Positions 1-64,000 of a stretch of 64,000 nucleotides of DNA are shown piece by piece. Position 1 is the stretch's first letter. Each line of letters opens with the position of its first letter. Position numbers and translations under genes: made by a program. The notes under the pieces are model-generated. The model was not told where the DNA came from, did no database searches, and saw only the letters and a list, made by a program, of their open reading frames with translations. Source of the DNA: a virus; IMG/VR virus record IMGVR_UViG_3300030104_002421, positions 32,001-96,000 of that record, one strand, 5' to 3'.

Positions 1-175
1 AAAATTTTACCCAAGGTCTTTCATAATTGTTGGCGATATCCCAATCTGTTTTTGAGATATTATCATTATAGTATTTGTCATTACTTTGTTTTGGTTCTGC
101 CCAACCATTTTTGATATGTTGTTGTAATTGACTTTTAATTAAAATGTGTTTGTCTAAAGGTAGTTTAATAATCAT
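1..175 (-). CDS. Partial ORF running off the window edge (MIIKLPLDKHILIKSQLQQHIKNGWAEPKQ...), possibly another 2OG-Fe(II) oxygenase-like protein
   Basis: Open frame from ATG at 175-173, overlapping the TGA of the upstream minus-strand gene (ATGA overlap); only the N-terminus is visible. Confidence 0.6.
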   Translation of the reverse strand, partial: MIIKLPLDKHILIKSQLQQHIKNGWAEPKQSNDKYYNDNISKTDWDIANNYERPWVKF

Positions 176-771
176 TTGTAAGGGTATCCTAGATTCCATA
201 TTACTAAAGAGTGTCTTACACCCTTGGTAACTGGTGTAACTCTATGTTTAACAAAAGAAGGAAATATACAAATAGACCCTCTTTCTTTTATTTCATTTAC
301 TTGAAATACACCATTTGGTGTTTCAAACTCTAAATCACCACCCTCATATTCGCCAGGGTGTGATAATTGTAATGTACAGGATAACTTTCTTATCTTACCA
401 TGATAATTTACATTGTCATTAGTAAAAGGTTGTACATCTTGGTCAGCATGCCAATGATAGTATTGATTTAGTTTATAACGAGTAAATTGTGCAGGTTCTG
501 AAAAGTCCCAATCAAAGTTCCATTTAGCATTTCTATTTGCTTCATCTACAAGTGGGTGTATCTCACTATAAACCCAAGGTTCTGATATCCAAGATACATT
601 GCTGTCTCTATGTAGTTTGATTTCTTCTTGTTTTTCCTCTGCTTCCTTTGCAGATATTTGACCTGTAGTAGCAAAATCTTCTTGTAGACCTTGACCAAAC
701 TGTACAATTTCATCACATATTCTAGGTGGAAGCGCTGCTGTAAAATAATAATAATAGTTTTCCAATATCAT
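172..771 (-). CDS. 2OG-Fe(II) oxygenase (PKHD/P4H-like)
   Basis: HxD (WHAD), RKLSCTLQLS..YEGGDLEF, distal H (KHRVTPV) and R (RHSLV); likely start MILENYYY at 771. Confidence 0.9.
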   Translation of the reverse strand: MILENYYYYFTAALPPRICDEIVQFGQGLQEDFATTGQISAKEAEEKQEEIKLHRDSNVSWISEPWVYSEIHPLVDEANRNAKWNFDWDFSEPAQFTRYKLNQYYHWHADQDVQPFTNDNVNYHGKIRKLSCTLQLSHPGEYEGGDLEFETPNGVFQVNEIKERGSICIFPSFVKHRVTPVTKGVRHSLVIWNLGYPYK

Positions 772-800
772 ATAGGTATATATAATGCATAAATAGTCAT
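772..800. promoter_or_regulatory. Back-to-back late (gp55-type) promoter variants
   Basis: CATAAATA at 788-795 lies 5 nt before the gp13 ATG; TATATATA at 777-784 lies 5 nt before the minus-strand ATG at 771. Confidence 0.55.
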
Positions 801-1628
801 ATGGCACAGAATAATCCAATTACCACAAGAGAGACTATGAAACAGTATTGCCTACGAGCATTAGGTAAACCTGTTATAGAAATCAATGTAGAAGACGACC
901 AAGTAGAAGATAGAATTGATGAAGCGTTACAATACTTTGCTCAATACCATTATGATGGCGTTGAAAGAATGTATTTAAAACATGTTGTAACTGCCGCTGA
1001 TATTACAAGAGCAAGGTCAGACGAAACATTGTCAACAGTTACAGATACAGCAGACAGTACGGTCACATCAGTTTGGACAGAAGGTAAGAATTATATACCT
1101 TTGCCATCTAGTGTTATGTCAGTAGTAAATGTATTTCCATTTACAGATAAAGCGGCATTAAACTTGTTTGATGTAAGATATCAATTAAGATTAAATGATT
1201 TGTACGATTTTTCATCTACAAGCATTATACACTATGATATGACATTAAGACATTTAGATTTATTAGACCATATCCTTGTAGGTGAAAGACCTGTAAGATA
1301 TAATATGCATAAAAACAGATTGTATATTGATATGGATTGGGCAAATGATGTAGCAGCAGGTGATTATCTAGTCATAGAATGTCATAGAAAATTAAACCCT
1401 TCTACTTTTACAGATATTTTTGATGATATGTTTTTAAAGAAATATACTATTCAATTAATTAAAAGACAATGGGGTGCTAACTTAATCAAGTTTCAAGGCG
1501 TTGCAATGTTAGGTGGTGTCGCATTAAATGGCGAACAACTATATACACAGGCGCAAGAAGAAATAAATAAACTAGAAGAACAAATACAATTATCATACGA
1601 ATTACCACCACAATATATGGTAGGATAA
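801..1628 (+). CDS. gp13: Neck protein gp13
   Basis: YCLRALGKPVIEINV..DQVEDRIDEALQ, KRQWGANLIKF motifs; T4 synteny. Confidence 0.95.
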   Translation: MAQNNPITTRETMKQYCLRALGKPVIEINVEDDQVEDRIDEALQYFAQYHYDGVERMYLKHVVTAADITRARSDETLSTVTDTADSTVTSVWTEGKNYIPLPSSVMSVVNVFPFTDKAALNLFDVRYQLRLNDLYDFSSTSIIHYDMTLRHLDLLDHILVGERPVRYNMHKNRLYIDMDWANDVAAGDYLVIECHRKLNPSTFTDIFDDMFLKKYTIQLIKRQWGANLIKFQGVAMLGGVALNGEQLYTQAQEEINKLEEQIQLSYELPPQYMVG

Positions 1629-1632
1629 AATC

Positions 1633-2514
1633 ATGCGAAATACTTACTTTTCACATGGCACACGCTCAGAGAAAACCTTATATGAGGATTTAATCATAGA
1701 GCAGTTAAAGATATATGGACATGAAGTTCATTATTTGCCAAGAAAAACTGTTACTGAGGATAAGATATTAGGTGAAACACCTGATAGTACATTTACAGAA
1801 AATTACATGATTGAAATGTATGTTGAAGATGTAAATGGTTTTGCAGGTCAAGGTGATTTAATTGGTAAGTTTGGTTTAGAAGTAAGAGACGAATTGACTT
1901 TCGTTGTTAGCAGGCGTAGTTTTGAAATGCTTGTTGACCAACCATCAAATACAATAGCAATTGATAGACCTGTTGAAGGTGATGTTATCTATATGCCAAC
2001 TTTTAAAAAGTTTTGGCAAGTAGATTTTGTTGAAGATGAGGATCCAATGTATCAAATCAATGATTTACCTATCTTCAAATTAAAATGCTCTGTTTGGGAA
2101 TACTCACACGAATTAGTGGATACAGGCATTACTGAAATTGATGAGAAACTAGAAAATGTATCCCAAGATTTATTACTAAATCAAATTACTTTAGAGGCGG
2201 GTACAACTTCAGCAGGTTCATTATTAGCAGAGGTTACAGATGGTAATGTTGAGGCATTACTTACAGAAACAGGTACAGGCGACTTCTACCTTGTTGATGA
2301 AACAGATAGCGACAATTTAATTCTGGAAGATGACCCTAATTATGTTGACTATATAATACAAGAAGACGCATTAACAGGCAACTTAGCAACGGACACAAGC
2401 GGTGCAAGCAATATAAGTTTTGATGATGAAGCGGGATTAAATGATACTGATACATCAAATGATATATTTGACTTTAGCGAAAAAAATCCATTTGGTGACC
2501 CAAGCGATATATAA
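1633..2514 (+). CDS. gp14: Neck/head-closure protein gp14
   Basis: LIIEQLKIYG.EVHYLPR, KFGLEVRDE, C-terminal FSEKNPFG. Confidence 0.95.
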   Translation: MRNTYFSHGTRSEKTLYEDLIIEQLKIYGHEVHYLPRKTVTEDKILGETPDSTFTENYMIEMYVEDVNGFAGQGDLIGKFGLEVRDELTFVVSRRSFEMLVDQPSNTIAIDRPVEGDVIYMPTFKKFWQVDFVEDEDPMYQINDLPIFKLKCSVWEYSHELVDTGITEIDEKLENVSQDLLLNQITLEAGTTSAGSLLAEVTDGNVEALLTETGTGDFYLVDETDSDNLILEDDPNYVDYIIQEDALTGNLATDTSGASNISFDDEAGLNDTDTSNDIFDFSEKNPFGDPSDI

Positions 2515-2525
2515 AGGAATAAATT

Positions 2526-3341: not shown

Positions 3342-3347
3342 TAGATT

Positions 3348-3749: not shown

Positions 3750-4356
3750 TATAACTATTAATACTTGGATTAATGATACAAATTTATGGACAACGCCTTT
3801 ATTTAATTGCAATGTACCAATTAAACCTGACTGGTTAAAGTATATCAAAGATAATACAGATAAGTTATGGGACGATACACAAAACCCTAACGGTTCATAT
3901 ACAACAAAAACTGATTTACATACACATAAAATATTTGAACCTTTAAATCAAATATTAAAACAAGTTAGTATTACTACCTTTGGTAAAAATGTAGAAAGTG
4001 TAAAAGTGGCAAACATGTGGGCAAATATACTGAAGCGTGGCGAATATCATTTATTACATACACACAATGAACACACCATGAGTGGTGCATATTACTTAAA
4101 AGTACCAGAAAATTCAGGTCAATTATATTTTAGAGACCCAAGACCAAATAGTAATTCTTGGACACAAAAATTTTTAGATAAAGGTAACATGAGGTTTTTT
4201 GATGTAAAAGAAGGCGACTTATATTTTTGGCCGTCTTTTTTAGACCATGGTACAACACCACACGGTTCTGACGAAGAAAGAATTACAATTAGTTTTGATT
4301 TAGATTATTCAGGACCTAACTATAAATTTGGAGATAACGGATACAATGGACAGTAA
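3742..4356 (+). CDS. 2OG-Fe(II) oxygenase (TIGR02466-like) inserted between gp16 and gp17
   Basis: WANI..HxH, SGAYYL, FRDPRP, FWPSFLDH, RITISFD. Confidence 0.85.
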   Translation: MGSITINTWINDTNLWTTPLFNCNVPIKPDWLKYIKDNTDKLWDDTQNPNGSYTTKTDLHTHKIFEPLNQILKQVSITTFGKNVESVKVANMWANILKRGEYHLLHTHNEHTMSGAYYLKVPENSGQLYFRDPRPNSNSWTQKFLDKGNMRFFDVKEGDLYFWPSFLDHGTTPHGSDEERITISFDLDYSGPNYKFGDNGYNGQ

Positions 4357-5986
4357 ATCTTATCTAGGTAATCCTAACTTAAAAGCGGCAAATCAAAAGA
4401 TACGCTTTACAAAAAAACAAGTTAGAGAGTTTTTACAATGTCAGGATAATCCCATATATTTTATTACAAACTATTTAAAGATAGTTACACTAGACCACGG
4501 TCTACAACCATTTAAGTTATATAACTTTCAAAAAGAAATGGTTGATACTTTTCATAATAATCGTTTTAGTATATGTAAACTACCAAGACAAACAGGTAAG
4601 TCAACAACAATTATTGCTTATCTATTACACTATGCAATATTTAATCCTAATGTTAACATTGCAATACTTGCCAATAAGGCGGCGGTTGCTAGAGATTTAT
4701 TAGGTAGATTGCAACTTGCATATGAAAATTTACCAAAGTGGTTACAACAAGGTGTTATAAACTGGAACAAAGGTAGTTTAGAATTAGAAAATGGTAGTAA
4801 GATACTTGCCGCTGCTACATCATCAAGTGCTGTGCGTGGTGGTTCTTATAACATTATATTCTTGGACGAGTTTGCATATGTACCAAACAATATCGCTGAA
4901 CAATTTTTTAGTTCAGTTTATCCTACAATATCTTCTGGTAAAAGTTCTAAAGTAATGATTGTATCTACACCACATGGTATGAATATGTTTTATAAAATGT
5001 GGAATGACGCTGTGCATGAAAGAAATAGTTACAAACCAATTGAGGTTCATTGGTCAGAGGTACCAGGTAGAGATGAGAAATGGAAACAAGAAACAATAAA
5101 GAATACAAGTGAACAACAATTTAGAACAGAATTTGATTGTGAGTTTTTAGGTAGTGTTGATACACTTATTAATAGTGCAAAGTTAAGAACATTATCACAT
5201 AATACACCAGAACAATCTAGTGCCGGTTTAGATATACATGAAATGCCACGAAAAGGTGCAAGATATGTAATGACTGTTGATGTTGCCAGAGGTACTGTAA
5301 ATGATTATTCTGCTTTTGTCGTTATTGACGCAACAAGTATACCATACAAGGTTGTTGCAAAATATAAAAACAATGAAATTAAACCTTTAGTATTTCCACA
5401 AATTATTCATAAGATTGCAACACAATATAATAAGGCAGAGGTCTTAATTGAGGTAAATGATATAGGTGGACAGGTGGCAGATACTATGCAATTTGACCTA
5501 GAGTATGATAATTTGATTATGGTAAATCAAAGAGGGCGTTCAGGTCAGGTTGCAGGTACAGGATTTAGTGGTAAACAAAGTCAACTAGGTGTAAGAACAA
5601 CAAAAGCAACAAAGAAAATAGGGTGTTCAAATCTTAAAGCAATGATAGAACATGATAAACTAATCATACAAGACTTTCATATTATACAAGAATTATCTAC
5701 CTATATATTAAAAGGTAAAGAAAAATACGAAGCGGAAGAAGGGTCAAGTGATGATTTAGTTACTTGTTTAGTTATGTTCGCATGGTTATCAAATCAGACA
5801 TATTTTAAAGAATTGACAGACCAAGATATACGAGCAAGACTTGTAGATGAACAACAAGACGCAATGGACCAAGACATGGCACCCTTTGGATTTATAGATG
5901 ATGGCATAGAAAGTGAAGAAGATAGTAGTTATAAAGACCCTTATGGTACTACATGGTCACCTGTAAAATACAAGAAGGGACTGTAA
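4346..5986 (+). CDS. gp17: Terminase large subunit gp17
   Basis: YLGNPNLK, Walker A PRQTGKST, Walker B IFLDEFA, STPHG, nuclease DVARG and DDLV. Confidence 0.97.
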   Translation: MDSKSYLGNPNLKAANQKIRFTKKQVREFLQCQDNPIYFITNYLKIVTLDHGLQPFKLYNFQKEMVDTFHNNRFSICKLPRQTGKSTTIIAYLLHYAIFNPNVNIAILANKAAVARDLLGRLQLAYENLPKWLQQGVINWNKGSLELENGSKILAAATSSSAVRGGSYNIIFLDEFAYVPNNIAEQFFSSVYPTISSGKSSKVMIVSTPHGMNMFYKMWNDAVHERNSYKPIEVHWSEVPGRDEKWKQETIKNTSEQQFRTEFDCEFLGSVDTLINSAKLRTLSHNTPEQSSAGLDIHEMPRKGARYVMTVDVARGTVNDYSAFVVIDATSIPYKVVAKYKNNEIKPLVFPQIIHKIATQYNKAEVLIEVNDIGGQVADTMQFDLEYDNLIMVNQRGRSGQVAGTGFSGKQSQLGVRTTKATKKIGCSNLKAMIEHDKLIIQDFHIIQELSTYILKGKEKYEAEEGSSDDLVTCLVMFAWLSNQTYFKELTDQDIRARLVDEQQDAMDQDMAPFGFIDDGIESEEDSSYKDPYGTTWSPVKYKKGL

Positions 5987-12147: not shown

Positions 12148-13440
12148 ATGACGGAAGAAATTAAAAACGAACAAGAAATCGTTTCTGAAGCTCCTAAGGG
12201 ACAAGATGCTCCTAAAGCTGGTGCAGCTAAAGCTGAACCAATGCAAAAAGTAGGCGACTTTGAAGATTTAGGTCCAGCGGTTGTAAAACCAACTGACAAA
12301 AATCCAGACGCTGCTAAAAAAACTAAAAAAGATGCATCCGCTCCTACGAAAGGTGCCGGCGCACCGGAATCTGCTGAGAAAATGAAAAAAGAAGAAGCAG
12401 AACCAGAAGACGCTGAAGATAAAGAAAACGATAAAAAAGATGACGAAGAAGAAAAAGCTGAAGATTATGGTAAAATGGAAACACCAAAAACCAAATCTGG
12501 CATGATTCAGGCAATGTACGACAACATGAACAAAATGAAAAAAGCTGATTTACAAGCCAACTATGGCAAAATGATGAAAGCAATGAACATGAAAATGGAC
12601 ATGGATCCTGAAGATAAAGAAGACGAAGATAAAGAAAAAGAAATGGCAGCTGCTTCTGAAGCAGTAGAAAAAAGAGTTAAAGAAATTAATGTTGAAGAAG
12701 ATGTTAATGCTTTAGTTTCTGGCGATGAAACTTTATCTGAGGACTTTAAAGCTAAAGCCGCAACAATCTTTGAAGCTGCAGTTAAATCAAAAGTAAGAAA
12801 TGAAATCGAAAGATTAGAAGGTGAATACTCAACTGAAATAACTGAAGCAACAAACAACATTAAAGAAGAATTAACTAATAAGGTTGATAACTACTTAAAC
12901 TATGTTGTTGAAGAATGGATGAAAGAAAACGAACTTGCTATTGAAAAAGGTATCAAAGGCGAGATTGCTGAAGATTTCATCGGCGGATTAAAACAATTAT
13001 TTGAAGACCATTACATTGATGTTCCAGATGAAAAGTATGATGTGCTTGGCGCAAAAGAAACTGAACTGGAAGAAGCGAAAGCTAAAATCAATGAAATGAC
13101 TGAAAAAATGATTGAAAAATCTAAAGTCATTAACGAGTTTACTAAAGAAGAAATTTTAGAAGACATTACATCTGGTCTTGCTGACACAGAGGTAGAGAAA
13201 CTAAAATCTTTAGTAGAAGATATAAGTTACGAAGGTGCTGATGAGTACAGAACAAAATTAGAAACTATTAAGGAATCTTATTTTGGACAAGGTGCTTCAA
13301 AGGCGGCTCCGGCGTCAACTGAAAATGTTGACACACTTAACACCGACAATGGTAACACAGTAACAGATATGTCTGATAGCATGTCTCGTTATACGGCTGC
13401 AATTAGTAGGGTAAAAGGTAGAGATATCTACAATAACTAA
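12148..13440 (+). CDS. gp22: Prohead core scaffold gp22
   Basis: LSEDFKAKAATIFEAAV, VDNYLNYVVEEWMKENELAIE; lies between gp21 and gp23. Confidence 0.93.
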   Translation: MTEEIKNEQEIVSEAPKGQDAPKAGAAKAEPMQKVGDFEDLGPAVVKPTDKNPDAAKKTKKDASAPTKGAGAPESAEKMKKEEAEPEDAEDKENDKKDDEEEKAEDYGKMETPKTKSGMIQAMYDNMNKMKKADLQANYGKMMKAMNMKMDMDPEDKEDEDKEKEMAAASEAVEKRVKEINVEEDVNALVSGDETLSEDFKAKAATIFEAAVKSKVRNEIERLEGEYSTEITEATNNIKEELTNKVDNYLNYVVEEWMKENELAIEKGIKGEIAEDFIGGLKQLFEDHYIDVPDEKYDVLGAKETELEEAKAKINEMTEKMIEKSKVINEFTKEEILEDITSGLADTEVEKLKSLVEDISYEGADEYRTKLETIKESYFGQGASKAAPASTENVDTLNTDNGNTVTDMSDSMSRYTAAISRVKGRDIYNN

Positions 13441-26802: not shown

Positions 26803-28059
26803 ATGGAAAAGAAAATTGACCCGCTATTAGAAGAGCAATGGGAGGTATTTCAAAAAGAAAACCCAAGTGCGACATTTCGACACATAGATGAGACAAAACT
26901 AAAAGATAACTTAACAAAAGAATTATCTTATGCTGCCAATATGTCAGTAGAAGAATATACACTATATCAAAAATGGTGTGAAGTTAAAAACAAATATCCT
27001 GCTCAAGTAGTAAACACATTGTTTGGCGAAGAAAGTCAATTAGTAGATTTATCAAAAGACAAATTATTAGTACATGTTAAAAACAATATATGGGCACCTA
27101 AAGACCCTATGGATTTTGAGAAGTTAGAACCAGAACTAATCTATACAAAAGATGACCCTAGTTACCCACAATTGTGGAATGCAATAAGAACATTTGCCTC
27201 TACAATGAAGAACAATAACAATATAGGTCGTAATTTAAACTTTATAGTAAGAGACAAACCAACAAAGAAATATCTAGGTGTCATTTGTATATCAAGTGAT
27301 TTTTTAGATTTAACACCTAGAGATAATTACATAGGTTGGGATAGAGAAAGAAAAACTAAAAAGATGATTAATCATACTGCTATTGGTAGTACGATTGTTC
27401 CATTACAACCACTAGGTTTTAATTATACTGGTGGTAAGTTACTGGCATTATTATGTCTATCTGATAAAGTACAAGAAACATGGAAAAAAGAATATGGTGA
27501 TACAATGGTTGGTGTTACAACAACAAGTCTCTATGGTAGTTTTAGTCAGTATCAAAATCTAAAATACTGGAAGAAAAGAGGTCATAGTGCAGGTAGTGTA
27601 TCATATGAAGCAACGAAACCTACAATACAAATGTTAAGAGATTGGTTAAAAGAAAATCATACTAGAAAATTCTTTGAATGGTATAGTGCTACAAAACCTA
27701 CAGGACAACCTTATAAGAGAGACCATAGAAATAGAAGTCATACATTTGCTTATGGTAAACTAGGTATACCTAAAGAAATTACAAAGTCAGCACATAGTAG
27801 AGGTATCTATTTCAGTACACTATACGACAATACATGTGAGTTTTTAAGAGAAGAAATAGAAGAAGATAAACTAAAGAAATCATTTGATAGTAGTATTGAA
27901 GGACTTGTAAATGTATGGAAGAACAAGTATGCTAGTAAGCGTATAAAATCGCTGATTAACCAATCTAGGACAAACATGGAATCACTTTATTATGATGACT
28001 TGATACATCTATCATGGGAAGAAACAAAAAATAAGTATCTAAAACAAGTAGGAAGATGA
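26803..28059 (+). CDS. DUF4338/DruA-like protein, copy 1
   Basis: GRNLNFIVRD, RDNYIGW, VPLQPLGFNYTGGKLLA, TTTSLYG, GHSAG. Confidence 0.8.
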   Translation: MEKKIDPLLEEQWEVFQKENPSATFRHIDETKLKDNLTKELSYAANMSVEEYTLYQKWCEVKNKYPAQVVNTLFGEESQLVDLSKDKLLVHVKNNIWAPKDPMDFEKLEPELIYTKDDPSYPQLWNAIRTFASTMKNNNNIGRNLNFIVRDKPTKKYLGVICISSDFLDLTPRDNYIGWDRERKTKKMINHTAIGSTIVPLQPLGFNYTGGKLLALLCLSDKVQETWKKEYGDTMVGVTTTSLYGSFSQYQNLKYWKKRGHSAGSVSYEATKPTIQMLRDWLKENHTRKFFEWYSATKPTGQPYKRDHRNRSHTFAYGKLGIPKEITKSAHSRGIYFSTLYDNTCEFLREEIEEDKLKKSFDSSIEGLVNVWKNKYASKRIKSLINQSRTNMESLYYDDLIHLSWEETKNKYLKQVGR

Positions 28060-31940: not shown

Positions 31941-32014
31941 GCGGGTTAAGTATAAAAGTAATACGCTTTGCTACCAGTAAAGAGAACTTTGGGCAGTACA
32001 AAGGATCCGCTCCA
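31941..32014 (+). tRNA. Non-canonical tRNA-Gly, anticodon ACC
   Basis: 74-nt cloverleaf: acceptor GCGGGTT/GATCCGC, D stem GTAT/ATAC, anticodon stem CTTTG/TAAAG with loop CT-ACC-AG, T stem CTTTG/CAAAG, discriminator T, encoded CCA; D and T loops are atypical. Confidence 0.8.
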
Positions 32015-37126: not shown

Positions 37127-39598
37127 ATGCAAGAATTTTATACAAATGTATCGCCGTATGGTGATGAATTATTAGTCCGTGGTTTTTCAGGCGGCAAGCG
37201 TTTTGAGGATAGAGTAACATATGTCCCAAAACTATATCACCCATACAAAGGTAAAACTACCCACAAAGCATTAGATGGCACACCTCTGGTTGCTAGAACT
37301 TGTAAATCTGTTAAAGAAGCAAGAATGCTAATTAAGAGATACGAAGACCACCCTAACTTTTTATATGGCACAGATAGATGGCAATATCAATACATGGCAG
37401 ACTATTGGCCGGGTCAAGTTGAATATGATAAAGACAAGTTAAGAATTTATACAATTGATATTGAAGTTGAAAGTGAACAAGGATTTCCTAATCCTGATGA
37501 CGCTGAAGAAAAGATGATTTGTATAACTATTAAAGATAGTGTTACAAAAAAATTCTTGGTTTGGGGTATTGCTGATTATACAGTTAAACAAGATAATGTT
37601 TCTTATATCAAATGTGATAATGAAAGAGACTTACTTAAAAAGTTTTTAGATTTCTGGCGTCAATATACACCAGATGTTGTTACAGGTTGGAACAGTAAAT
37701 ACTTTGATGTACCTTATTTAATTAATCGTATTGAGAAAGTATTAGGTTCTGCTGCCATAAAAAGAATGTCGCCATGGGGTCTAGTAGATAGAGATACTGC
37801 TTATCACAATGGTAGACAAGTAACATTTTTCAGATTACTAGGTATTGCACAATTAGACTATTTGCAATTGTATGCCAAATTTACAATTAAGAACCAAGAA
37901 CGATATACACTTGACCATATTGCTTTTGTTGAGTTAGGTGAACAAAAAGATAAAAACCCATATGATACTTTCAAAGAATGGTATCAACAAGACATACAAT
38001 CTTTTATTGATTACAATATTATTGATGTTGAGTTAGTTGATAAACTAGAAGATAGATTACAATTGATTGAACTTGCATTAACTATGGCATACAATGCCAA
38101 AGCAAATTATGAAGATGTATTTTCGCAAGTTAGAATGTGGGATACAATTATCTTTAATGAATTGTTAAAAGACAATATTGTTGTACCAATGAGAAAGATT
38201 GGTAGTATTCAAGCAAAAGAACTTGTTGGTGCATATGTTAAAGAACCTAAAACAGGTTTCCATGAATGGGTTGTATCTTTTGATTTAAACAGTTTGTATC
38301 CACACCTTATTATGCAATACAATATTTCGCCAGAAACTATTTTAGAAGGTCAAAAAGATATTAAGATTTCTGACTTGATAAACAAGACGGTTGATACCTC
38401 TGATGGTAATTGTGTTGCTGCTAATGGCACAATGTATAGAAATGATAAACAAGGTATGTTGCCACGAATTATACAAAAAGAATATAATGCTCGTACAATA
38501 TTTAAAAAGAAAATGTTAGAAGCAGAGCAAATGTATGCTAACACAAAAGATAAGAAGTATGAAAAACTTGCAAGAAAATATTATATTGTTCAGCATTCTA
38601 AAAAGATTTCATTGAATAGTGCTTATGGTGCAATTGGTAACAAATACTTTAGATATTATGACCATAGACAGGCAGAAGCAATTACAATGTCAGGTCAATT
38701 AAATATTAAATGGATTGAGAAGAAACTAAACGAATACTTTAACAAGTTGTATAAAACTGATGATGATTATATTATTGCTAGTGATACAGATTCCGTGTAT
38801 ATTAATATGGCGCCATTAGTTAAGATGACAGGCGCTACAGATAAGAATAAGATTGTTAAAGCATTAGATAGTTTTTGTAGAGATAAAGTTGAACCATACA
38901 TTGCTAAAGTATATAAAGAACTTGCAGATTATATGAATGTCTATGAACAAAAAATGGAAATGGCAAGAGAAGTTATTGCTGATAGAGGTATCTGGACTGC
39001 CAAGAAAAGATATATTTTAAATGTACACAATTCTGAAGGTGTACAATATCCAGAACCTAAACTAAAGATTATGGGTATTGAAGCAGTTAAGACCTCAACG
39101 CCACTACCTTGTAGAGATAAACTCAAAGAGAGTTTTAAAATATTAATGAATGGTGATGAAAAAGAAATGAAAGAGTTTTGTGTAAACTTTAGACGAGAGT
39201 TTGAATTGTTACCACCTGAAGATATTGGTTTCCCTCGTAGTGTAAACAATGTAGAAAAATATAGTGATACAACATCTATCTACAAAAAAGGCACACCAAT
39301 GCATGTCAAAGGTGCATTACTATATAATCATCTATTGAAAACAAAAAAAGTATCACATAAACATCAAGCAATTTACGAAGGCGATAAAGGTAAGTTTGTG
39401 CATTTGAGAAAGAATCCTTGGAATGCCAATGTAATAACTTTCATTGGTAGTTTACCAAAAGAATTTGATATGCATAAACTTATTGATTATGAACAACAAT
39501 TTACTAAATCATTTATGGATCCACTACGATTTATACTCGAAGCAATAAACTGGAAAGTGGATGCAAGTGATAGTAATACAATTGAGGATTTCTTTTGA
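37127..39598 (+). CDS. gp43: Family B DNA polymerase gp43
   Basis: Exonuclease DIE, FDLNSLYP, KISLNSAYG, DTDS, KKRY. Confidence 0.98.
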   Translation: MQEFYTNVSPYGDELLVRGFSGGKRFEDRVTYVPKLYHPYKGKTTHKALDGTPLVARTCKSVKEARMLIKRYEDHPNFLYGTDRWQYQYMADYWPGQVEYDKDKLRIYTIDIEVESEQGFPNPDDAEEKMICITIKDSVTKKFLVWGIADYTVKQDNVSYIKCDNERDLLKKFLDFWRQYTPDVVTGWNSKYFDVPYLINRIEKVLGSAAIKRMSPWGLVDRDTAYHNGRQVTFFRLLGIAQLDYLQLYAKFTIKNQERYTLDHIAFVELGEQKDKNPYDTFKEWYQQDIQSFIDYNIIDVELVDKLEDRLQLIELALTMAYNAKANYEDVFSQVRMWDTIIFNELLKDNIVVPMRKIGSIQAKELVGAYVKEPKTGFHEWVVSFDLNSLYPHLIMQYNISPETILEGQKDIKISDLINKTVDTSDGNCVAANGTMYRNDKQGMLPRIIQKEYNARTIFKKKMLEAEQMYANTKDKKYEKLARKYYIVQHSKKISLNSAYGAIGNKYFRYYDHRQAEAITMSGQLNIKWIEKKLNEYFNKLYKTDDDYIIASDTDSVYINMAPLVKMTGATDKNKIVKALDSFCRDKVEPYIAKVYKELADYMNVYEQKMEMAREVIADRGIWTAKKRYILNVHNSEGVQYPEPKLKIMGIEAVKTSTPLPCRDKLKESFKILMNGDEKEMKEFCVNFRREFELLPPEDIGFPRSVNNVEKYSDTTSIYKKGTPMHVKGALLYNHLLKTKKVSHKHQAIYEGDKGKFVHLRKNPWNANVITFIGSLPKEFDMHKLIDYEQQFTKSFMDPLRFILEAINWKVDASDSNTIEDFF

Positions 39599-40725
39599 TA
39601 TTAAATGACCAAGATAGTACCTGGGCAATGAATTACTTTATTGAATACTTTGGGCAGTTTGAGAGAATTGACCAGTATCTTAAAGAACAAAAACTAGAAC
39701 AAGTCAAATCTTTTCCATTTCAGTTACCTGGTATGGCAGATGAAGATGATTTCTTTAGTAATTTTGATTTACACCCACATGATATGAAATTTAGTGTAAC
39801 AATACCAAACGGACAAATATTTGATAGAATGTTAAACAAAACATCTAGTCATACAAACATGTCAAGTATACCTGGTAAAAGTATTAGATTATTAGTTACA
39901 GAAACAACAACAAATACAATAGTTGGTTTTATAAGATTAGGTAGTCCAGTTATCAACAGCAAACCACGAAATGATTTTCTTGGTAGACCTTTACAAACAA
40001 CAGACTTAAAAGAAATGGGTCGTTTCAATGCAAGTGCCATCATGGGATTTGTTATAGTACCAACACAACCTTTTGGTTATAACTATCTAGGTGGTAAATT
40101 ATTAGCGGCGATATGTTGTTCTCATCATGTCCGTGATTTACTAAATAGCAAGTATAATACTAATATATGTTTATTTGAAACTACATCATTATATGGTAGT
40201 AGTAAGGCGTCAAGTCAATATGATGGTATGAAACCTTATTTAAGATTTAAAGGTTTGACAGATAGTAATTTTTTACCATTGTTACATGGTGACGCTTTTA
40301 AACAAATGAATAAATGGTTTACGGAACGAAATGGTAATGAACCATTAGTTGACCCAGAGGCAAGTAGTAGAAAACTTAAAACACAAACGAAGATGGTATC
40401 TGTTATAAAGGAATCATTAAAAAAACACAATACTAACTTATATGAAAAGTTTGGTAAGTTTGTTAATAAGACTAGAGACTTGACGGAAAGAAAAAGGTTT
40501 TATATATCTGATTACGGTTATGACAATGTACCACAGTATTTAAAAGGTGAAACTGATAAGTTAAATCCTAGTGTACACCACTATGATAAATTCACTTTAG
40601 AAAATACAATCAAGTGGTGGCAAAAGATTGCAGGTAAAAGATATGATAAACTAAAGCAAAGTGCCACATTGAGGAATGAATTAGAGATATGGCACCAGGA
40701 TGCTGAAATACAAATTATAAGATAA
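39595..40725 (+). CDS. DUF4338/DruA-like protein, copy 2, coupled to the polymerase gene
   Basis: PGKSIRLLV, LGSPVIN..PR, VPTQPFGYNYLGGKLLA, ETTSLYG..SQY; TTGA overlap with the gp43 stop. Confidence 0.8.
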   Translation: MILNDQDSTWAMNYFIEYFGQFERIDQYLKEQKLEQVKSFPFQLPGMADEDDFFSNFDLHPHDMKFSVTIPNGQIFDRMLNKTSSHTNMSSIPGKSIRLLVTETTTNTIVGFIRLGSPVINSKPRNDFLGRPLQTTDLKEMGRFNASAIMGFVIVPTQPFGYNYLGGKLLAAICCSHHVRDLLNSKYNTNICLFETTSLYGSSKASSQYDGMKPYLRFKGLTDSNFLPLLHGDAFKQMNKWFTERNGNEPLVDPEASSRKLKTQTKMVSVIKESLKKHNTNLYEKFGKFVNKTRDLTERKRFYISDYGYDNVPQYLKGETDKLNPSVHHYDKFTLENTIKWWQKIAGKRYDKLKQSATLRNELEIWHQDAEIQIIR

Positions 40726-43794: not shown

Positions 43795-43864
43795 ATAGTT
43801 CTAATAGTATATAAGTGTATAATTAATAAACAATAATGTTTATTATACACAATGGGAGTTATTG

Positions 43865-46151: not shown

Positions 46152-46153
46152 AA

Positions 46154-49816: not shown

Positions 49817-49817
49817 T

Positions 49818-50168: not shown

Positions 50169-50176
50169 TATAAATA
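50169..50176 (+). promoter_or_regulatory. T4 late promoter TATAAATA
   Basis: Exact consensus. Confidence 0.8.
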
Positions 50177-50194
50177 GTAACACGGAGAGAATAA

Positions 50195-51562: not shown

Positions 51563-51574
51563 AGGGAGACTAAA

Positions 51575-52282
51575 ATGACTGACAAAAAAATAAAAGGCTG
51601 GAATAGTTCGTATTTTGGCGAAGCAAAACCAGGAAGTTTGAAAGATGTAATACAAAATATTACTAACAAACAAAATGCATTAGTAGGTGATAAACCTGTT
51701 GTTGCAGACCCAATTACACCTGAACAAGTAGCAAACAAAGAAAAGTTTAATACTGAAGCAAAATATACTGTTTCTATTGAAACAAATAAAAACGATAAAT
51801 CTGATGACGGTGAAGGCTTAGACGCTGTACAACCTAAAGCAGTAAAGAAGAAGTTTAAAGATAGAAAAGACAAAGACATTGACAATGATGGTGATGTAGA
51901 TAGTTCAGATAAATTTCTTCACAAAAGACGAAAAGCAATCTCAAAGGCAGTAAAAAAAGATGAAGGCGCTATGAAGCGTGGTGACCATTTAGATACTTTT
52001 AAACCTAAACCTAAAAAAGAAAAACATAAACCAGGACATGATGAAGATGAAAAAGGTAAAGATAAGAATGGTGTAAAGGTTCATGGTGAACAAGCTGACA
52101 AATGGGAAGCAGTAAGAGCATTTAAAGTATCATCTATGAAAGACGCTTTAGCAAAAGTATATGCTGAAAAATTAGAAGATGATGATACACCAGAGGTAAA
52201 AGATACTATCAAAGGTCTTAAAAAAGCAAGTCAATCACATGCTAAACAGGCTAAATCTTTAGAAAAACAAATTAAAGATTAA
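51575..52282 (+). CDS. Late charged protein with a DxDxDG Ca-binding-like loop
   Basis: DKDIDNDGDVDSSDKFLHKRRKAI. Confidence 0.6.
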   Translation: MTDKKIKGWNSSYFGEAKPGSLKDVIQNITNKQNALVGDKPVVADPITPEQVANKEKFNTEAKYTVSIETNKNDKSDDGEGLDAVQPKAVKKKFKDRKDKDIDNDGDVDSSDKFLHKRRKAISKAVKKDEGAMKRGDHLDTFKPKPKKEKHKPGHDEDEKGKDKNGVKVHGEQADKWEAVRAFKVSSMKDALAKVYAEKLEDDDTPEVKDTIKGLKKASQSHAKQAKSLEKQIKD

Positions 52283-52283
52283 C

Positions 52284-52874
52284 ATGAAGTATTCCGCTCT
52301 GGCGGAGACGATTAAAGGCATCCATATTATACAGGAAGCAGATAGTCTCCCAACTATATACTGTGATATGGATGGCGTCTTGGTAGATTTTGCCAAAGGC
52401 ATTGATAAAATGTTTACGCTTAAATCTAAAGACCCAAGTATGCCGGGACCTATGCAAACGGCAGGTTATTCTGACGCCAAAGATTGGTTAAAAGCACCAA
52501 TGACGGCGGCAAAATGGCAACCTATACATGATTACCCTATGTTTTGGCCTACACTACCGTGGATGAAAGACGGTTTAAAATTGTGGTCCTACATAAGGAA
52601 ATTCAATCCACACATTCTATCTGCCTATACACCATTTGATAAGAATAGTATTAAAGGTAAACAATTGTGGATACAACGAAACTTAAAACTAACGGACTCT
52701 AGTAGAATCCATTTAGTTAGAAGAAGTGAGAAGCGAGTATATGCTAATGGTAATGTATTAATTGATGATTATGGTAAGAATACTAAAGAATGGAAAAATT
52801 ACAAAGGTATTCCTATCAAACATAAATCCGCTTCAAGTACAATTTCCTCGTTAAGAAAACTTGGATTTGTATAA
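52284..52874 (+). CDS. HAD phosphatase (5'(3')-deoxyribonucleotidase-like)
   Basis: DMDGVLVDF, ILSA, K..W, LIDDY. Confidence 0.85.
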   Translation: MKYSALAETIKGIHIIQEADSLPTIYCDMDGVLVDFAKGIDKMFTLKSKDPSMPGPMQTAGYSDAKDWLKAPMTAAKWQPIHDYPMFWPTLPWMKDGLKLWSYIRKFNPHILSAYTPFDKNSIKGKQLWIQRNLKLTDSSRIHLVRRSEKRVYANGNVLIDDYGKNTKEWKNYKGIPIKHKSASSTISSLRKLGFV

Positions 52875-60795: not shown

Positions 60796-60804
60796 AGACT
60801 AGGC

Positions 60805-60833
60805 TTGACTTTTTAGCGGTTTTGTGATATAAT
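60805..60833 (+). promoter_or_regulatory. Sigma70-type promoter of the primase/nrd operon
   Basis: TTGACT-N17-TATAAT with an extended TG. Confidence 0.8.
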
Positions 60834-60843
60834 ACATAGTATT

Positions 60844-61365: not shown

Positions 61366-62345
61366 TAGACTTACAATATTTACACCAGATTTCCCACAAA
61401 CTAGATAGATTTAAAAAGAAAAATCAAAACTTATATAACTTTAGATGTCCCTATTGTGGCGATAGTCAAAAGAAACAATCTAAAGCAAGAGGTTTTGTTT
61501 ATCGTAGTAAACAAGATTATTTCTACAAATGCCATAATTGTGGTAAAGGTACTACATTAGGTAAACTTATAGAACATATTGACCCAGATTTATATAAGAA
61601 GTGGGTAGTAGAGAAGTTTAAAAAAGGTTCTAAACAACACAAAGAACCTGATTTTGATTTTAAACCAGTAAAGTTTCCTGATAGTAACTTAAATAAACTT
61701 ACTAACTTTTCAAAGTTATCATCTGACCATCCGGCACTAGACTTTATCACTAAAAGAAAACTACAAGATTATATTGATAAATTTTATTTTGCACCTAAAT
61801 TTATGACATGGGTAAACAGTATGATACCTAACAAGTTTCCAGAAGTAAAGAATGACCATCCTAGAGTAGTAATACCATTCTTTGATACAAGTGGTAAGAT
61901 GTTTGCTTTTCAAGGTCGAGCATTTGGTAAAGAAGAACCAAAATATATAACAATTAAACTAGATGAGAACAAAAGAAGAATATACGGACTTGATACTATA
62001 AACATAAACAAAGATATTAAAGTTGTAGAAGGTCCTATTGATAGTCTATTTTTGTATAATGCCGTAGCATGTGCTGGTGCAGATATGGTTTTACCTAGAA
62101 CAAAAAATAATGCTGTGTATATCTTTGACAATGAACCAAGAAATACCGTAATTATTCAAAAATTAGAAAATTTAATTACTCAAGGTTACCGTGTATGTAT
62201 TTGGCCTAAAAGCATAAAAGAAAAGGATATCAATGATTTAATACTTGCAGGTTACTCAAAAGTAGAGATAGAGGATATTATAAGTAGTAACACATTTTCA
62301 AAATTATCAGCAATACAACAATTAAACAATTATAAGGAGGTATAA
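61362..62345 (+). CDS. gp61: DNA primase gp61
   Basis: NFRCPYCGDS..KARG..CHNC zinc finger, VEGPIDSLF, DNEPRN, KDIND. Confidence 0.96.
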   Translation: MIDLQYLHQISHKLDRFKKKNQNLYNFRCPYCGDSQKKQSKARGFVYRSKQDYFYKCHNCGKGTTLGKLIEHIDPDLYKKWVVEKFKKGSKQHKEPDFDFKPVKFPDSNLNKLTNFSKLSSDHPALDFITKRKLQDYIDKFYFAPKFMTWVNSMIPNKFPEVKNDHPRVVIPFFDTSGKMFAFQGRAFGKEEPKYITIKLDENKRRIYGLDTININKDIKVVEGPIDSLFLYNAVACAGADMVLPRTKNNAVYIFDNEPRNTVIIQKLENLITQGYRVCIWPKSIKEKDINDLILAGYSKVEIEDIISSNTFSKLSAIQQLNNYKEV

Positions 62346-62346
62346 A

Positions 62347-64000
62347 TTGTCCCCAGACGCTATACAAGTTAAGAAACGAAACGGTAGGGGGTTAGAACCT
62401 CTGGATATACAAAAGATACATTCCATGGTAGGATTTGCATGTGAAGGTTTGTCTAATGTATCTGAAAGTCAAGTAGAAATGTCAAGTGGATTACAATTCT
62501 ATGATGGCATGACTACAGATGAGATACAACAGATATTAATAAAATCAGCGAATGACTTAATCACTTTAGAAAATCCTAACTATCAATATGTAGCGGCAAG
62601 ATTGTTACTCTTTAGTCTTCGAAAATCTCTCCATCACAAATTATGGGACCACCCAACAGTAAAAGAACATGTACAGAAATGTATTGAGTTAGGTGTCTAT
62701 GACAAAGAAATTGTAAACTGGTATGATGAGGATGAATTAGACCAAATGAACGGTTTTATAAAGCATGATAGAGATTATTTATTTTCTTATGCAGGTATTC
62801 GTCAAGTTATAGATAAGTACCTAGTACAAGACCGTTCAAATGGGTCTATATTTGAAACACCGCAATTCATGTATATGATGATAGCGGCAACATTATTCAG
62901 AAATTATGATAAAGAAAGGAGAATGAGTTATGTTAAAAAATATTATAATGCGATTTCAAATCATCTTATCAATATTCCCACACCTGTTATGGCTGGTGTT
63001 CGTACTCCTCTTCGCCAGTTTGCTAGTTGTGTTTTGGTCGATAGTGATGACACTTTGCCTAGCATTTTCTCTAGCGACATGGCTATTGGGCGTTATGTTT
63101 CCCAAAGGGCAGGAATTGGTATCAACGCTGGGAGAATCCGTGGAATCAACAGTAAGATTAGGGGTGGAGAAGTCCAGCATACTGGCGTTGTCCCTTTTCT
63201 CAAAAAATTTGAAGCAACCGTTAAATGCTGTACACAAAACGGTGTACGAGGCGGGTCAGCGACTGTACACTTTCCTATCTGGCACCAAGAGATAGAAGAT
63301 ATTATTGTTTTAAAGAACAATAAAGGTACGGAAGATAATAGAGTTAGAAAACTAGACTACTCTATACAAATATCAAAAATATTTTACGAAAGATTTATAC
63401 AAGGTGAAGATATAACTTTATTCTCACCACATGAAGCACCAGGTCTATATGACGCTTTTGGTACGGAAGAGTTTGATGAAATGTATATGATGTATGAAAG
63501 AAAAACTAGTGTAAAGAAAAAGAAGGTATCTGCTCAAAAATTATTTGGTGATATCTTAAAAGAAAGAGCAGAAACAGGTCGTATTTACATAATGAATATT
63601 GACCATTGTAATACTCATTCTAGTTTTAAAGACATGGTAAGAATGTCAAATTTATGTCAGGAAATAACACTACCTACAGACCCATTACAACACATTGATG
63701 GCGAAGGAGAGATTGCATTATGTATTCTATCTGCTATAAATATGGGTTCAATTTCAGATAAGGAAGAGTTAGAAGGACTATGTGATTTATCTGTACGAGG
63801 ACTAGAGGAGTTGATTGACCTCCAACAATATCCAGTTAAGGCAGCAGAGATATCAACAAAAGCAAGGCGTAGTTTAGGCGTTGGTTATATTGGTCTGGCA
63901 CACTTCTTAGCAAAGAACAAAGTTAAGTATGAAAGTAAAGAGGCATGGAGATTAATTGATGAATATACTGAAGCATTCCAATATTATTTACTTAAATCAA
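62347..64000 (+). CDS. nrdA: Class Ia ribonucleotide reductase alpha subunit (partial)
   Basis: TTG start after AGGAGG; ATP cone VKKRNG, PTPVMAG.RT..RQFASCVL, QNGVRGG, SNLCQEI. Confidence 0.95.
   Translation, partial: MSPDAIQVKKRNGRGLEPLDIQKIHSMVGFACEGLSNVSESQVEMSSGLQFYDGMTTDEIQQILIKSANDLITLENPNYQYVAARLLLFSLRKSLHHKLWDHPTVKEHVQKCIELGVYDKEIVNWYDEDELDQMNGFIKHDRDYLFSYAGIRQVIDKYLVQDRSNGSIFETPQFMYMMIAATLFRNYDKERRMSYVKKYYNAISNHLINIPTPVMAGVRTPLRQFASCVLVDSDDTLPSIFSSDMAIGRYVSQRAGIGINAGRIRGINSKIRGGEVQHTGVVPFLKKFEATVKCCTQNGVRGGSATVHFPIWHQEIEDIIVLKNNKGTEDNRVRKLDYSIQISKIFYERFIQGEDITLFSPHEAPGLYDAFGTEEFDEMYMMYERKTSVKKKKVSAQKLFGDILKERAETGRIYIMNIDHCNTHSSFKDMVRMSNLCQEITLPTDPLQHIDGEGEIALCILSAINMGSISDKEELEGLCDLSVRGLEELIDLQQYPVKAAEISTKARRSLGVGYIGLAHFLAKNKVKYESKEAWRLIDEYTEAFQYYLLKS

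What the first reader, a model, noticed from the sequence alone, without database searches (positions are those of the whole stretch)
1..64000. GATC and GANTC sites survive almost only inside GGA/TCC, a footprint of a sequence-specific base modification
Seen (hand count, approximate): all ~30 GATC I found are GGATC or GATCC (e.g. 2041, 3312, 6095, 21836, 57842, 58412). I found no AGATCT, TGATCA or AGATCA, although A/T flanks should dominate in such AT-rich DNA. About 35 GANTC are GGANTC or GANTCC, with only three exceptions (12504, 13820, 14204). The one GAATTC I noticed (~52598) is GGAATTC. GATGC is also depleted, with Asp-Ala usually written GAC-GCN, and about half of the survivors are GGATGC. 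Codon choice bends accordingly (GAC-CAA, GAC-CAT, GAC-CTT). Inference: host restriction sites are purged except where they overlap a motif the phage itself modifies (A or G of GGA, or C of TCC). GATC, GANTC and GATGC are all classic m6A-type R-M targets, which favours an adenine in GGA.
Basis: partly seen in the sequence, partly recalled or inferred. Interest (0 to 1): 0.85.

Follow-up and report, generated by a model that had tools for sequence, protein, structure and literature searches.

The report
GGA-shielded restriction sites in a pelagiphage
This SAR11-infecting T4-like phage has removed every GATC, GANTC and GATGC from its genome unless a G precedes it (GGA…). That is the footprint of an unidentified enzyme, carried only by this phage lineage, that probably marks the adenine of GGA and hides those sites from DNA-cutting defences.

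Summary
The window is bases 32001-96000 of a 146-kb pelagimyophage, about 81% identical to Pelagibacter phage HTVC008M.

Counts against a codon-shuffle null, whole genome:
- HGATCD: 0 sites, about 210 expected.
- HGANTCD: 5 sites, about 223 expected.
- HGATGC: 12, about 196 expected.
- GGANTC, GGATGC and GGATCC sit at expectation. One-sided GGATCD is partly depleted (37 vs 127).

The rule recurs in HTVC008M, in Mosig and in an unrelated 166-kb T4-like contig. It is absent from two podoviruses of the same host and from the T4-like phage Melnitz. Those three also purge GATC or GANTC but keep no GGA-flanked copies. So the shield belongs to the phage lineage, not to the nuclease or the host.

Rescue occurs only where GA opens the site, which favours the adenine. 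G at -2 is disfavoured, so the motif is about HGGA.

No canonical DNA methyltransferase or DpdA is encoded. The best candidates are two DruA/DUF4338 GNAT-fold proteins (26803-28059 and 39595-40725). Their top structural match is phage Mu Mom, but they share no detectable sequence homology with it. A covarying tRNA-Gly(ACC)-like gene lies at 31941-32014.

Modification itself is not shown. The scan had noted the same pattern in an overlapping window of this genome, not on other DNA.

The parts
1..64000 (.). Footprint. GATC, GANTC and GATGC occur only, or almost only, with a 5' G on one strand (GGATC, GGANTC, GGATGC). Unflanked copies are purged by synonymous recoding.
2040..2045 (.). Example of a doubly flanked GGATCC site. 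This class is not depleted: 13 vs 9.7 expected genome-wide.
12504..12508 (+). Unprotected GANTC, context TGATTCA. It is one of only five in the genome, and all five read TGATTCA on the coding strand. The other two in the window are at 13820 and 14204.
26803..28059 (+). DruA/DUF4338-family protein, 418 aa ('type 1'). It has a GNAT-fold core at residues about 104-351. It is conserved in HTVC008M (80% identity), Mosig (59%) and contig L141 (65%), and absent from Melnitz and the podoviruses. Lead candidate for the GGA-modifying enzyme.
39595..40725 (+). Second DruA/DUF4338-family protein, 376 aa ('type 2'). Its start overlaps the stop of the DNA polymerase gene. It is present in HTVC008M and in a subset of cyanomyophages, where it lies between the clamp-loader genes. 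It is absent from Mosig.
37127..39598 (+). T4-type DNA polymerase (gp43), given for context. In phage Melnitz a HhaI-type C5 DNA methylase gene occupies the slot just downstream of it.
31941..32014 (+). 74-nt tRNA-like gene with a GCGGG acceptor start, U73, an encoded CCA and an ACC anticodon. The D and T loops are non-canonical. It is a possible aminoacyl donor if the enzyme works like Mom; that link is speculative.

Best explanation
After replication, a phage-encoded enzyme recognises the short word 5'-(H)GGA-3' in double-stranded DNA and modifies one base of it, most probably N6 of the adenine.

In GGATC, GGANTC and GGATGC that adenine is the one which GATC-, GANTC- and GATGC-specific systems read. 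It is also the one their cognate methylases mark. These copies are therefore masked. Copies without the 5' G cannot be masked, and selection has removed them through synonymous changes such as GAT to GAC before C.

Palindromic sites with a G on only one side are hemi-modified. That is enough for GANTC, gives partial protection for GATC in this phage and HTVC008M, and gives none in Mosig, where only GGATCC survives.

Shown:
- the footprint
- its lineage specificity
- the register dependence
- the absence of canonical methylase and DpdA genes

Inferred:
- that a modification exists
- that it is on adenine (about 55% given a modification)
- that a DruA-family GNAT-fold protein makes it (about 35%)
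- that it uses the tRNA-Gly-like RNA as donor, as Mu Mom uses Gly-tRNA (about 15-20%)
For: Size of the effect against 300 codon-preserving shuffles:
- HGATCD 0 vs about 210 sites
- HGANTCD 5 vs about 223
- HGATGC 12 vs about 196
- GGATCC 13 vs 9.7
- GGANTCD 68 vs 65
- GGATGC 23 vs 24.5

Same rule in related phages:
- HTVC008M and Mosig.
- An independent 166-kb T4-like contig, L141, GC 44%: HGANTCD 2 vs 82 and GGANTCD 34 vs 21.

Negative controls:
- HTVC011P and HTVC019P (same host) have GATC 0 vs 161 and 0 vs 176, and GANTC 2 vs 136 and 12 vs 162. Their GGATCD counts are 0 vs 34 and 0 vs 32; GGANTCD 0 vs 16 and 0 vs 18.
- Melnitz has HGATCD 20 vs 474 and GGATCD 10 vs 149.

Register map:
- Rescue only where GA is the 5' end of the word: GATC, GANTC, GATGC, and GAGATG in HTVC008M.
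- No rescue where only the Gs lie in the word (TCGGA, CASTGGA).
- No rescue where only the A lies in words whose known cognate methylation is on C, by my recollection (GGACGT, GGAGCT).

Finer specificity, shared by independent genomes: G at -2 is disfavoured, 15 vs 49 against 380 vs 523 for H at -2, and 1 of 36 in L141.

Site positions are no more conserved than background, so the sites are tolerated rather than required.

No PF01555, PF02086, PF00145, PF02384, PF01702 or PF25680 match over cut-off, and no DPPY-type motif.

Candidate enzyme:
- Two PF14236 DruA proteins.
- AF2 model with pLDDT 95.8.
- PDB hits are GNAT folds throughout. Mu Mom 8bv8 ranks first: Z 9.9, 186 of 222 residues aligned.
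- Present in all four phages that show rescue and absent from all controls.
- Always located in the replication/recombination module.

Mom precedent: a GNAT enzyme that modifies N6-adenine in the 3-nt word SAS, using Gly-tRNA as donor (PMC13219725).
Against: - No direct evidence that the DNA is modified.
- GGA does not rescue GAATTC (0 vs 9.4 and 0 vs 6.7) or TCCGGA (1 site vs about 5.6 in each of three genomes).
- GGAGTC is missing in the three pelagimyophages.
- The DruA-rescue association rests on few lineages that are not phylogenetically independent. 31 genes share the same presence/absence pattern.
- DruA-like proteins show no sequence homology to Mom: hhalign probability 0.3-1.5%. The structural Z for Mom is within 1 of ordinary GNATs.
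- Several DruA-bearing phages (S-SSM7, L140, L144, L149, L152) do not avoid these words, so they say nothing either way.
- A G-flank rescue of CTGCAG also occurs in Melnitz, which lacks DruA. Flank-dependent survival can therefore have other causes.
- SAR11 genomes are reported to lack R-M systems almost entirely.
Confidence: 0.62

Rival explanations
1. The shielding mechanism is the same, but the modified base is the second G of GGA or its paired C (TCC), not the adenine. Examples would be a 7-deazaguanine-type or a cytosine modification.
For: That G:C pair also lies inside GATC, GANTC and GATGC, so it could mask them. The footprint alone cannot tell strands or bases apart.
Against: - TCGGA and TCCGA contain that pair inside the purged word TCGG/CCGA yet are not rescued: 3 vs 43 and 2 vs 38.
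- GGAATTC is not rescued.
- No TGT/DpdA or C5/N4 methylase family is found.
- From my own knowledge, the three rescued words are all words whose cognate methylation is on that adenine.
Confidence: 0.15
2. There is no phage modification. The nucleases, or other agents, that pelagimyophages meet simply do not act on G-flanked sites. Podoviruses and Melnitz meet different enzymes that do.
For: - Flanking sequence does affect many restriction enzymes.
- A G-flank rescue of CTGCAG occurs across unrelated phages, including one without DruA.
- The natural host ranges of the compared phages are unknown.
Against: - It needs three unrelated specificities (GATC, GANTC, GATGC) to share the same odd 'not G at -1' rule, plus a shared dislike of G at -2.
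- Phages isolated on the same host strain purge GGATC and GGANTC completely.
- In Melnitz the CTGCAG flank effect is present while the GATC flank effect is absent, so the two are separable.
Confidence: 0.1
3. The purged words are avoided because host methyltransferases mark them (CcrM at GANTC, possibly others), not because host nucleases cut them. The marks would then expose the phage to methylation-dependent nucleases or disturb its regulation. The GGA mark, or the GGA context, prevents that methylation.
For: - SAR11 methylates GANTC genome-wide.
- SAR11 is reported to lack classical R-M.
- About half of the pelagiphages analysed in that study deplete GANTC (PMC9516812; PMC7029224).
Against: - It does not explain the many other purged palindromes (ACGT, CGCG, AGTACT, TCTAGA and others). 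Those look like ordinary restriction-site avoidance.
- It still needs a phage-specific GGA-directed activity. This makes it a variant of the main model that differs only in the selective agent.
Confidence: 0.1
4. GGATC, GGANTC and GGATGC are functional signals kept by positive selection, for example for replication, packaging or transcription. They are not tolerated leftovers.
For: GGATCC exceeds the null in HTVC008M (28 vs 12.5 sites) and in Mosig (19 vs 7).
Against: - Site positions are conserved no better than background between this phage and HTVC008M: GATC 14 of 38, against GGAT 69 of 226.
- The sites are scattered inside coding regions in all frames.
- Most classes sit at expectation, not above it.
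Confidence: 0.03

Closest known systems
Phage Mu Mom (PF25680): momylation of adenine
   Same: - It is a phage enzyme that modifies adenine N6 after replication in a very short word (SAS). The mark shields overlapping restriction sites.
- It has a GNAT fold. Mom is the top structural match of the DruA-like model: Z 9.9, 186 residues aligned.
- It depends on tRNA-Gly (PMC13219725), and a tRNA-Gly-like gene lies nearby here.
   Different: - The inferred word here is (H)GGA, with the A at the 3' end, not SAS.
- There is no detectable sequence homology.
- The proteins are about twice as long, with extra N- and C-terminal domains.
- The chemistry is unknown.
- The genome has additionally purged all unshielded sites.
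Restriction-site avoidance in phage genomes (my recollection: GATC-free Staphylococcus phage K; from the literature: GANTC depletion in pelagiphages, PMC9516812)
   Same: Short palindromes are removed by synonymous recoding, and many words fall to zero.
   Different: Here avoidance depends on one flanking base, so that one sub-class of each word is fully tolerated. I did not find this conditional pattern described in the papers I could search.
Phage-encoded orphan or short-motif DNA methyltransferases (my recollection: T4 Dam, chlorovirus M.CviPI GpC)
   Same: Self-protection by marking a short word that overlaps many restriction sites.
   Different: No Pfam DNA-methylase family and no DPPY-type motif is found in this genome.
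Sequence-context-specific 7-deazaguanine modification (DpdA phages such as CAjan; motifs GA and GGC, from my recollection)
   Same: Partial, motif-dependent base replacement that blocks restriction.
   Different: No TGT/DpdA homologue is present. A modified G in every GA would protect all GATC, which is not what is seen.
DruA of type I Druantia (PF14236)
   Same: Both candidate proteins match this family: E 4e-20 and 4e-9. The Aravind group reads the domain as GNAT-like (PMC10853773).
   Different: The phage copies stand alone in the replication module, with no DruB-E. The function of DruA is unknown in any context.

Membership tests
Restriction-site avoidance with overlap protection (phenomenon) | Target words strongly under-represented against a codon-aware null | tested here: met
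   HGATCD 0 vs about 210 sites, HGANTCD 5 vs about 223, HGATGC 12 vs about 196.
Restriction-site avoidance with overlap protection (phenomenon) | Copies that overlap the protective word are not under-represented | tested here: met
   GGANTC 80 vs 78, GGATGC 23 vs 24, GGATCC 13 vs 9.7 sites. One-sided GGATCD is rescued only partly, 37 vs 127.
Restriction-site avoidance with overlap protection (phenomenon) | Protection is a property of the phage, not of the nuclease or host | tested here: met
   No rescue in HTVC011P and HTVC019P (same host) or in Melnitz. Rescue is present in 3 pelagimyophages and in L141.
Restriction-site avoidance with overlap protection (phenomenon) | A modified base is physically present at the protective word | not testable with these tools
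   Needs SMRT or Nanopore kinetics, LC-MS, or digests of virion DNA.
Mom family (PF25680) | Sequence match to the family profile | tested here: not met
   No PF25680 match in the genome at E<=10. hhalign of the DruA-like alignment against Mu Mom and against a Mom alignment gives probability 1.5% and 0.3%.
Mom family (PF25680) | GNAT fold with the Mom-specific HTH-like insertion | tested here: inconclusive
   The GNAT fold is clear. Mom 8bv8 ranks first (Z 9.9, 186 of 222 residues aligned against about 145-150 for most other listed GNATs), but its Z is within 1 of other GNATs. No residue-level alignment was available.
Mom family (PF25680) | Catalytic residues R111, S124 and R151 (as reported in PMC13219725); use of Gly-tRNA | not tested
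   No structural superposition at residue level was possible. A tRNA-Gly(ACC)-like gene is present at 31941-32014, but its use is unknown.
DruA / DUF4338 (PF14236) | Match over the Pfam gathering score | tested here: met
   Window 26803-28059: 72.5 bits. Window 39595-40725: 36.4 bits. The cut-off is 27 bits. Both also match phrog_19197.
Canonical DNA methyltransferases (N6/N4 amino-MTases, C5-MTases) | Pfam PF01555, PF02086, PF02384 or PF00145 domain, or a (D/N)PP(Y/F/W) motif | tested here: not met
   The only hit is a 14-bit partial PF01555 match, inside a generic class-I methyltransferase. That protein has no DPPY motif and is absent from Mosig.
DpdA / 7-deazaguanine DNA modification | TGT-family transglycosylase (PF01702) | tested here: not met
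   No match at E<=1.

The most novel reading that the evidence does not exclude
DruA/DUF4338 proteins are a new family of sequence-specific DNA adenine-modifying enzymes. They would be analogous to Mu Mom in fold and logic but unrelated to it in sequence. In pelagimyophages they would mark 5'-HGGA-3', possibly with a dedicated non-canonical tRNA-Gly(ACC) as acyl donor. By extension, DruA in type I Druantia would be the self-marking component of that defence system.
Probability: 0.25. Interest if true: 0.92.

Novelty: new variant of a known kind. Interest (0 to 1): 0.8.

Why it matters
- **Ecological reach.** Pelagimyophages infect SAR11, the most abundant bacteria in the sea. SAR11 is reported to carry almost no restriction-modification systems, and phage DNA modification was set aside for that reason (PMC7029224).
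- **What the genome says instead.** This phage has been scrubbed of more than 15 short words. It also seems to own a three-to-four-base protective mark with no recognisable methylase behind it.
- **If confirmed.** It would show strong sequence-specific nuclease pressure, still unidentified, in the SAR11 world. It would explain the puzzling GANTC depletion in pelagiphages. It would point to a new DNA-modifying enzyme class, and the leading candidate would give a first functional handle on DruA of the Druantia defence system.
- **Directly testable.** HTVC008M is in culture and shows the same footprint.

Tried and rejected
- **Canonical enzymes.** Searches of the whole genome for PF01555, PF02086, PF00145, PF02384, PF01702 and PF25680 found nothing over cut-off. 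A six-frame scan for (D/N)PP(Y/F/W) gave only one spurious hit.
- **Generic methyltransferase.** The class-I methyltransferase at genome 102942-103658 sits in a sugar/radical-SAM cluster. I rejected it because it lacks the motif and is absent from Mosig, which shows the rescue.
- **Cluster at 43862-52874.** It holds DUF6267, a zeta-toxin-like kinase, a cytidylyltransferase-like protein and NT5C. It gave no link to sequence-specific modification.
- **Mom homology.** Not significant by sequence.
- **Functional-motif idea.** Site positions are not conserved beyond background.
- **'GGAH' specificity.** Suggested by the missing GGAGTC. I dropped it because GGAG protects GAGATG in HTVC008M and GGAGTC is common in L141.
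- **IMG/VR relatives.** Those found with the capsid protein were nearly all too short to use.
- **Other DruA-bearing sequences.** L140, L143-L145, L148-L152 and cyanophage S-SSM7 do not avoid these words or are too short, so they are uninformative.
- **tRNA detection.** ARAGORN and Rfam do not call the tRNA-like gene. Covariation nevertheless supports it.
- **Not done.** I did not search SAR11 genomes for R-M genes myself.

Full report
**What the DNA is**

The window is bases 32001-96000 of a 146,188-bp, 99%-complete virus record. It is about 81% identical at the nucleotide level to Pelagibacter phage HTVC008M, a T4-like myovirus of SAR11 in the Kyanoviridae. G+C is 33%, and nearly all genes in the window lie on the + strand.

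**The observation**

- All 32 GATC in the window are GGATC or GATCC.
- 34 of 37 GANTC are flanked in the same way.
- In the whole genome, 50 of 50 GATC and 74 of 79 GANTC are flanked.

I built a null by shuffling synonymous codons among positions with the same amino acid. This keeps proteins and codon usage unchanged. Counts against that null, whole genome:

| word | observed | expected |
|---|---|---|
| HGATCD | 0 | about 210 |
| HGANTCD | 5 | about 223 |
| HGATGC | 12 | about 196 |
| GGATCC | 13 | 9.7 |
| GGANTCD | 68 | 65 |
| GGANTCC | 6 | 6 |
| GGATGC | 23 | 24.5 |
| GGATCD | 37 | 127 |

The G-flanked classes are therefore at expectation, except one-sided GGATCD, which is partly depleted. 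Window-only figures tell the same story.

Codon choice shows how the purge works. Asp is written GAT 75% of the time. This drops to 9% when the next base is C and the previous base is not G, and stays at 59% when the previous base is G.

GAATTC is absent from the genome.

**The wider picture in this genome**

GATC, GANTC and GATGC are part of a much larger purge.

- Zero or nearly zero: ACGT (0 vs 282), CGCG (0 vs 38), CASTG (0 vs 128), AGTACT, TCTAGA, TCATGA, GAATTC, ATCGAT, GTGCAC, YGCNGCR, WCTNAGW and TCAAGA/TCTTGA.
- Strongly reduced: TCGA, AGCT, CCGA/TCGG and CGATG.

The purged set differs between close relatives. ACGT is 0 here and 108 in HTVC008M. TCGA is 43 here and 2 there. CTTAG is 48 here and 213 there. 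That turnover is what an ongoing conflict with sequence-specific nucleases would produce.

**Is the GGA rule a property of the phage?**

This was the key test.

Phages that show the rule:
- HTVC008M: HGATCD 0, HGANTCD 0; GGATGC 14 vs 19.
- Mosig EXVC030M: all 19 GATC are GGATCC; GGATCD is 0 vs 97; GGATGC is 20 vs 18 against HGATGC 13 vs 156.
- L141, from an unrelated 166-kb T4-like metagenomic contig with 44% G+C: HGANTCD 2 vs 82, GGANTCD 34 vs 21, and 35 of 36 sites flanked.

Phages that purge the same words but keep no G-flanked copies:
- The podoviruses HTVC011P and HTVC019P, isolated on the same host strain. GGATCD is 0 vs 34 and 0 vs 32; GGANTCD is 0 vs 16 and 0 vs 18.
- The T4-like OM43 phage Melnitz, which depletes GATC evenly: HGATCD 20 vs 474, GGATCD 10 vs 149.

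So whatever targets these words does attack GGATC and GGANTC. The exemption is specific to one phage lineage. This argues against a flank preference of the nucleases and against a host-wide methylase.

**Which base?**

I mapped every way GGA can overlap a purged word.

- Rescue occurs only where GA is the 5' end of the word: GATC, GANTC, GATGC, and GAGATG in HTVC008M.
- There is none where only the two Gs lie inside the word: TCGGA 3 vs 43, CASTGGA 0 vs 14.
- There is none where only the A lies inside ACGT or AGCT. These are words whose known methylases act on C (my knowledge).
- GGAATTC is not rescued (0 vs 9.4).
- TCCGGA is still depleted.

From established knowledge, the A of GATC and GANTC is the base methylated by Dam-type and CcrM/HinfI-type enzymes. 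A mark on N6 of the GGA adenine would therefore mimic cognate protection. I take adenine as the most likely target, without proof.

Two further details speak for a real enzyme specificity:
- G at -2 is disfavoured in all informative genomes: 15 vs 49, against 380 vs 523 for H at -2, and 1 of 36 in L141.
- Hemi- and fully flanked palindromes behave differently.

Site positions are no better conserved than background. The sites are tolerated, not required.

**Which gene?**

The genome has no match over cut-off to the N6/N4, D12, N6_Mtase or C5 methylase families, to TGT/DpdA, or to Mom. It has no DPPY-type motif. A generic class-I methyltransferase is absent from Mosig.

Two proteins in the window belong to the DruA/DUF4338 family:
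- 26803-28059, 418 aa.
- 39595-40725, 376 aa, directly after the DNA polymerase gene.

The Aravind group reads this domain as GNAT-like (PMC10853773).

An AlphaFold model of the first, built on 64 diverse homologues, has pLDDT 95.8. All listed PDB matches by Foldseek and VIA-align are GNAT folds or related acyl-CoA enzymes. The crystal structure of phage Mu Mom ranks first in VIA-align (Z 9.9, rmsd 4.3, 186 of 222 residues). It is within one Z unit of ordinary GNATs but has a longer aligned stretch. Profile comparison with Mom is not significant, so these proteins are not members of the Mom family.

A 2025 paper independently called the cyanophage homologue of the second protein structurally Mom-like (PMC12801897). 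Mom is now known to transfer glycine from Gly-tRNA to N6 of adenine in the 3-nt word SAS (PMC13219725).

Distribution and position:
- The first DruA-like type is present in all four phages that show the rescue. It is absent from Melnitz and the podoviruses.
- DruA homologues in other T4-like contigs always sit in the replication/recombination module.
- In Melnitz the slot after the polymerase holds a C5 DNA methylase.

This is guilt by association. 31 genes share the same presence/absence pattern, and the lineages are few.

**A possibly linked RNA**

ARAGORN and Rfam call nothing there.

The 74-nt stretch folds into a cloverleaf with a GCGGG acceptor start, U73, an encoded CCA and an ACC anticodon. 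Orthologues exist in HTVC008M and Mosig. Across the three sequences:
- 96.8% of cells pair.
- 10 of 21 pairs carry compensatory double changes.
- No shuffle out of 500 does as well.
- Slid controls reach only 40-52%.

A crude scan finds it only in the three pelagimyophages. Given Mom's use of Gly-tRNA, a dedicated donor RNA is an attractive idea, but it is speculative.

**What remains unexplained**

- GGAGTC is missing in the three pelagimyophages, although GGAG protects elsewhere.
- GGATCC is enriched 2- to 2.7-fold in HTVC008M and Mosig.
- All five unprotected GANTC are TGATTCA.
- HCTGCAGD is purged while GCTGCAG is kept in this phage, HTVC008M, S-SSM7 and also Melnitz. Other flank-dependent rescues therefore exist that do not depend on DruA.
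- The selective agent is unknown. SAR11 genomes are reported to lack R-M systems almost entirely. GANTC depletion in pelagiphages has been published, but without the flank rule and without an explanation (PMC9516812).

**Verdict**

The phenomenon is a new variant of a known kind: self-protection by short-motif DNA modification combined with purging of unprotected sites. It has a new inferred motif and probably a non-canonical enzyme. Proof needs modification mapping on virion DNA, which is feasible because HTVC008M is cultured.

Noticed in passing
window 31941-32014 (+): A 74-nt tRNA-like gene with a GCGGG acceptor start, U73, encoded CCA and an ACC anticodon. ARAGORN and Rfam miss it. It is conserved in HTVC008M and Mosig with 10 compensatory pair changes, and 0 of 500 shuffles do as well. 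An A34 glycine anticodon is, as far as I recall, unknown in bacteria.
   Followed up: partly
whole window and genome: More than 15 other words are purged. ACGT, CGCG, CASTG, AGTACT, TCTAGA, TCATGA, GAATTC, ATCGAT, GTGCAC, YGCNGCR and WCTNAGW are at or near zero. TCAAGA/TCTTGA is 2 vs 102. TCGA, AGCT, CCGA and CGATG are strongly reduced. The purged set differs from that of HTVC008M and Mosig.
   Followed up: partly
genome-wide; also HTVC008M (L005-L007) and Mosig (L017-L024): GGAGTC with no G on the other strand is 0 vs about 10-12 expected in all three pelagimyophages. This holds even in Mosig, which does not avoid GANTC. It may be a separately avoided 6-mer.
   Followed up: partly
HTVC008M and Mosig whole genomes: GGATCC is enriched over the codon-shuffle null: 28 vs 12.5 sites in HTVC008M and 19 vs 7 in Mosig. 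In Mosig every GATC is GGATCC.
   Followed up: no
window 12504, 13820, 14204; genome 891, 1788: All five unprotected GANTC sites of the genome share the 7-mer TGATTCA, always on the coding strand. Four of the five read T|GAT|TCA (Asp-Ser).
   Followed up: partly
this genome, HTVC008M, S-SSM7 (L025-L036), Melnitz (L123-L130): HCTGCAGD is purged while GCTGCAG/CTGCAGC is kept; all 27 PstI-type sites of S-SSM7 are flanked this way. Because Melnitz lacks DruA-like genes, this is a separate flank-dependent rescue of unknown cause.
   Followed up: partly
L120 (Melnitz MZ577097.1, bases 4010-5227 of the record): A HhaI-type C5 DNA methylase gene lies directly downstream of the DNA polymerase gene. In this window the DruA-like gene 39595-40725 occupies that slot.
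   Followed up: no
L143 (6484-7593 next to 4589-5917) and L145 (127-1500 next to 1500-2591): In some marine phage contigs two DruA-family paralogues lie next to each other, separated by one small gene in L143 and abutting in L145. In L145 the pair sits immediately upstream of the DNA polymerase gene.
   Followed up: no
genome 99877-106667 (just beyond the window's end): A cluster of GT2, radical SAM, a generic class-I methyltransferase, NAD synthase (NadE), UDP-glucose dehydrogenase and a 2OG oxygenase. It looks like sugar or surface chemistry, not sequence-specific DNA modification. The methyltransferase is absent from Mosig.
   Followed up: partly
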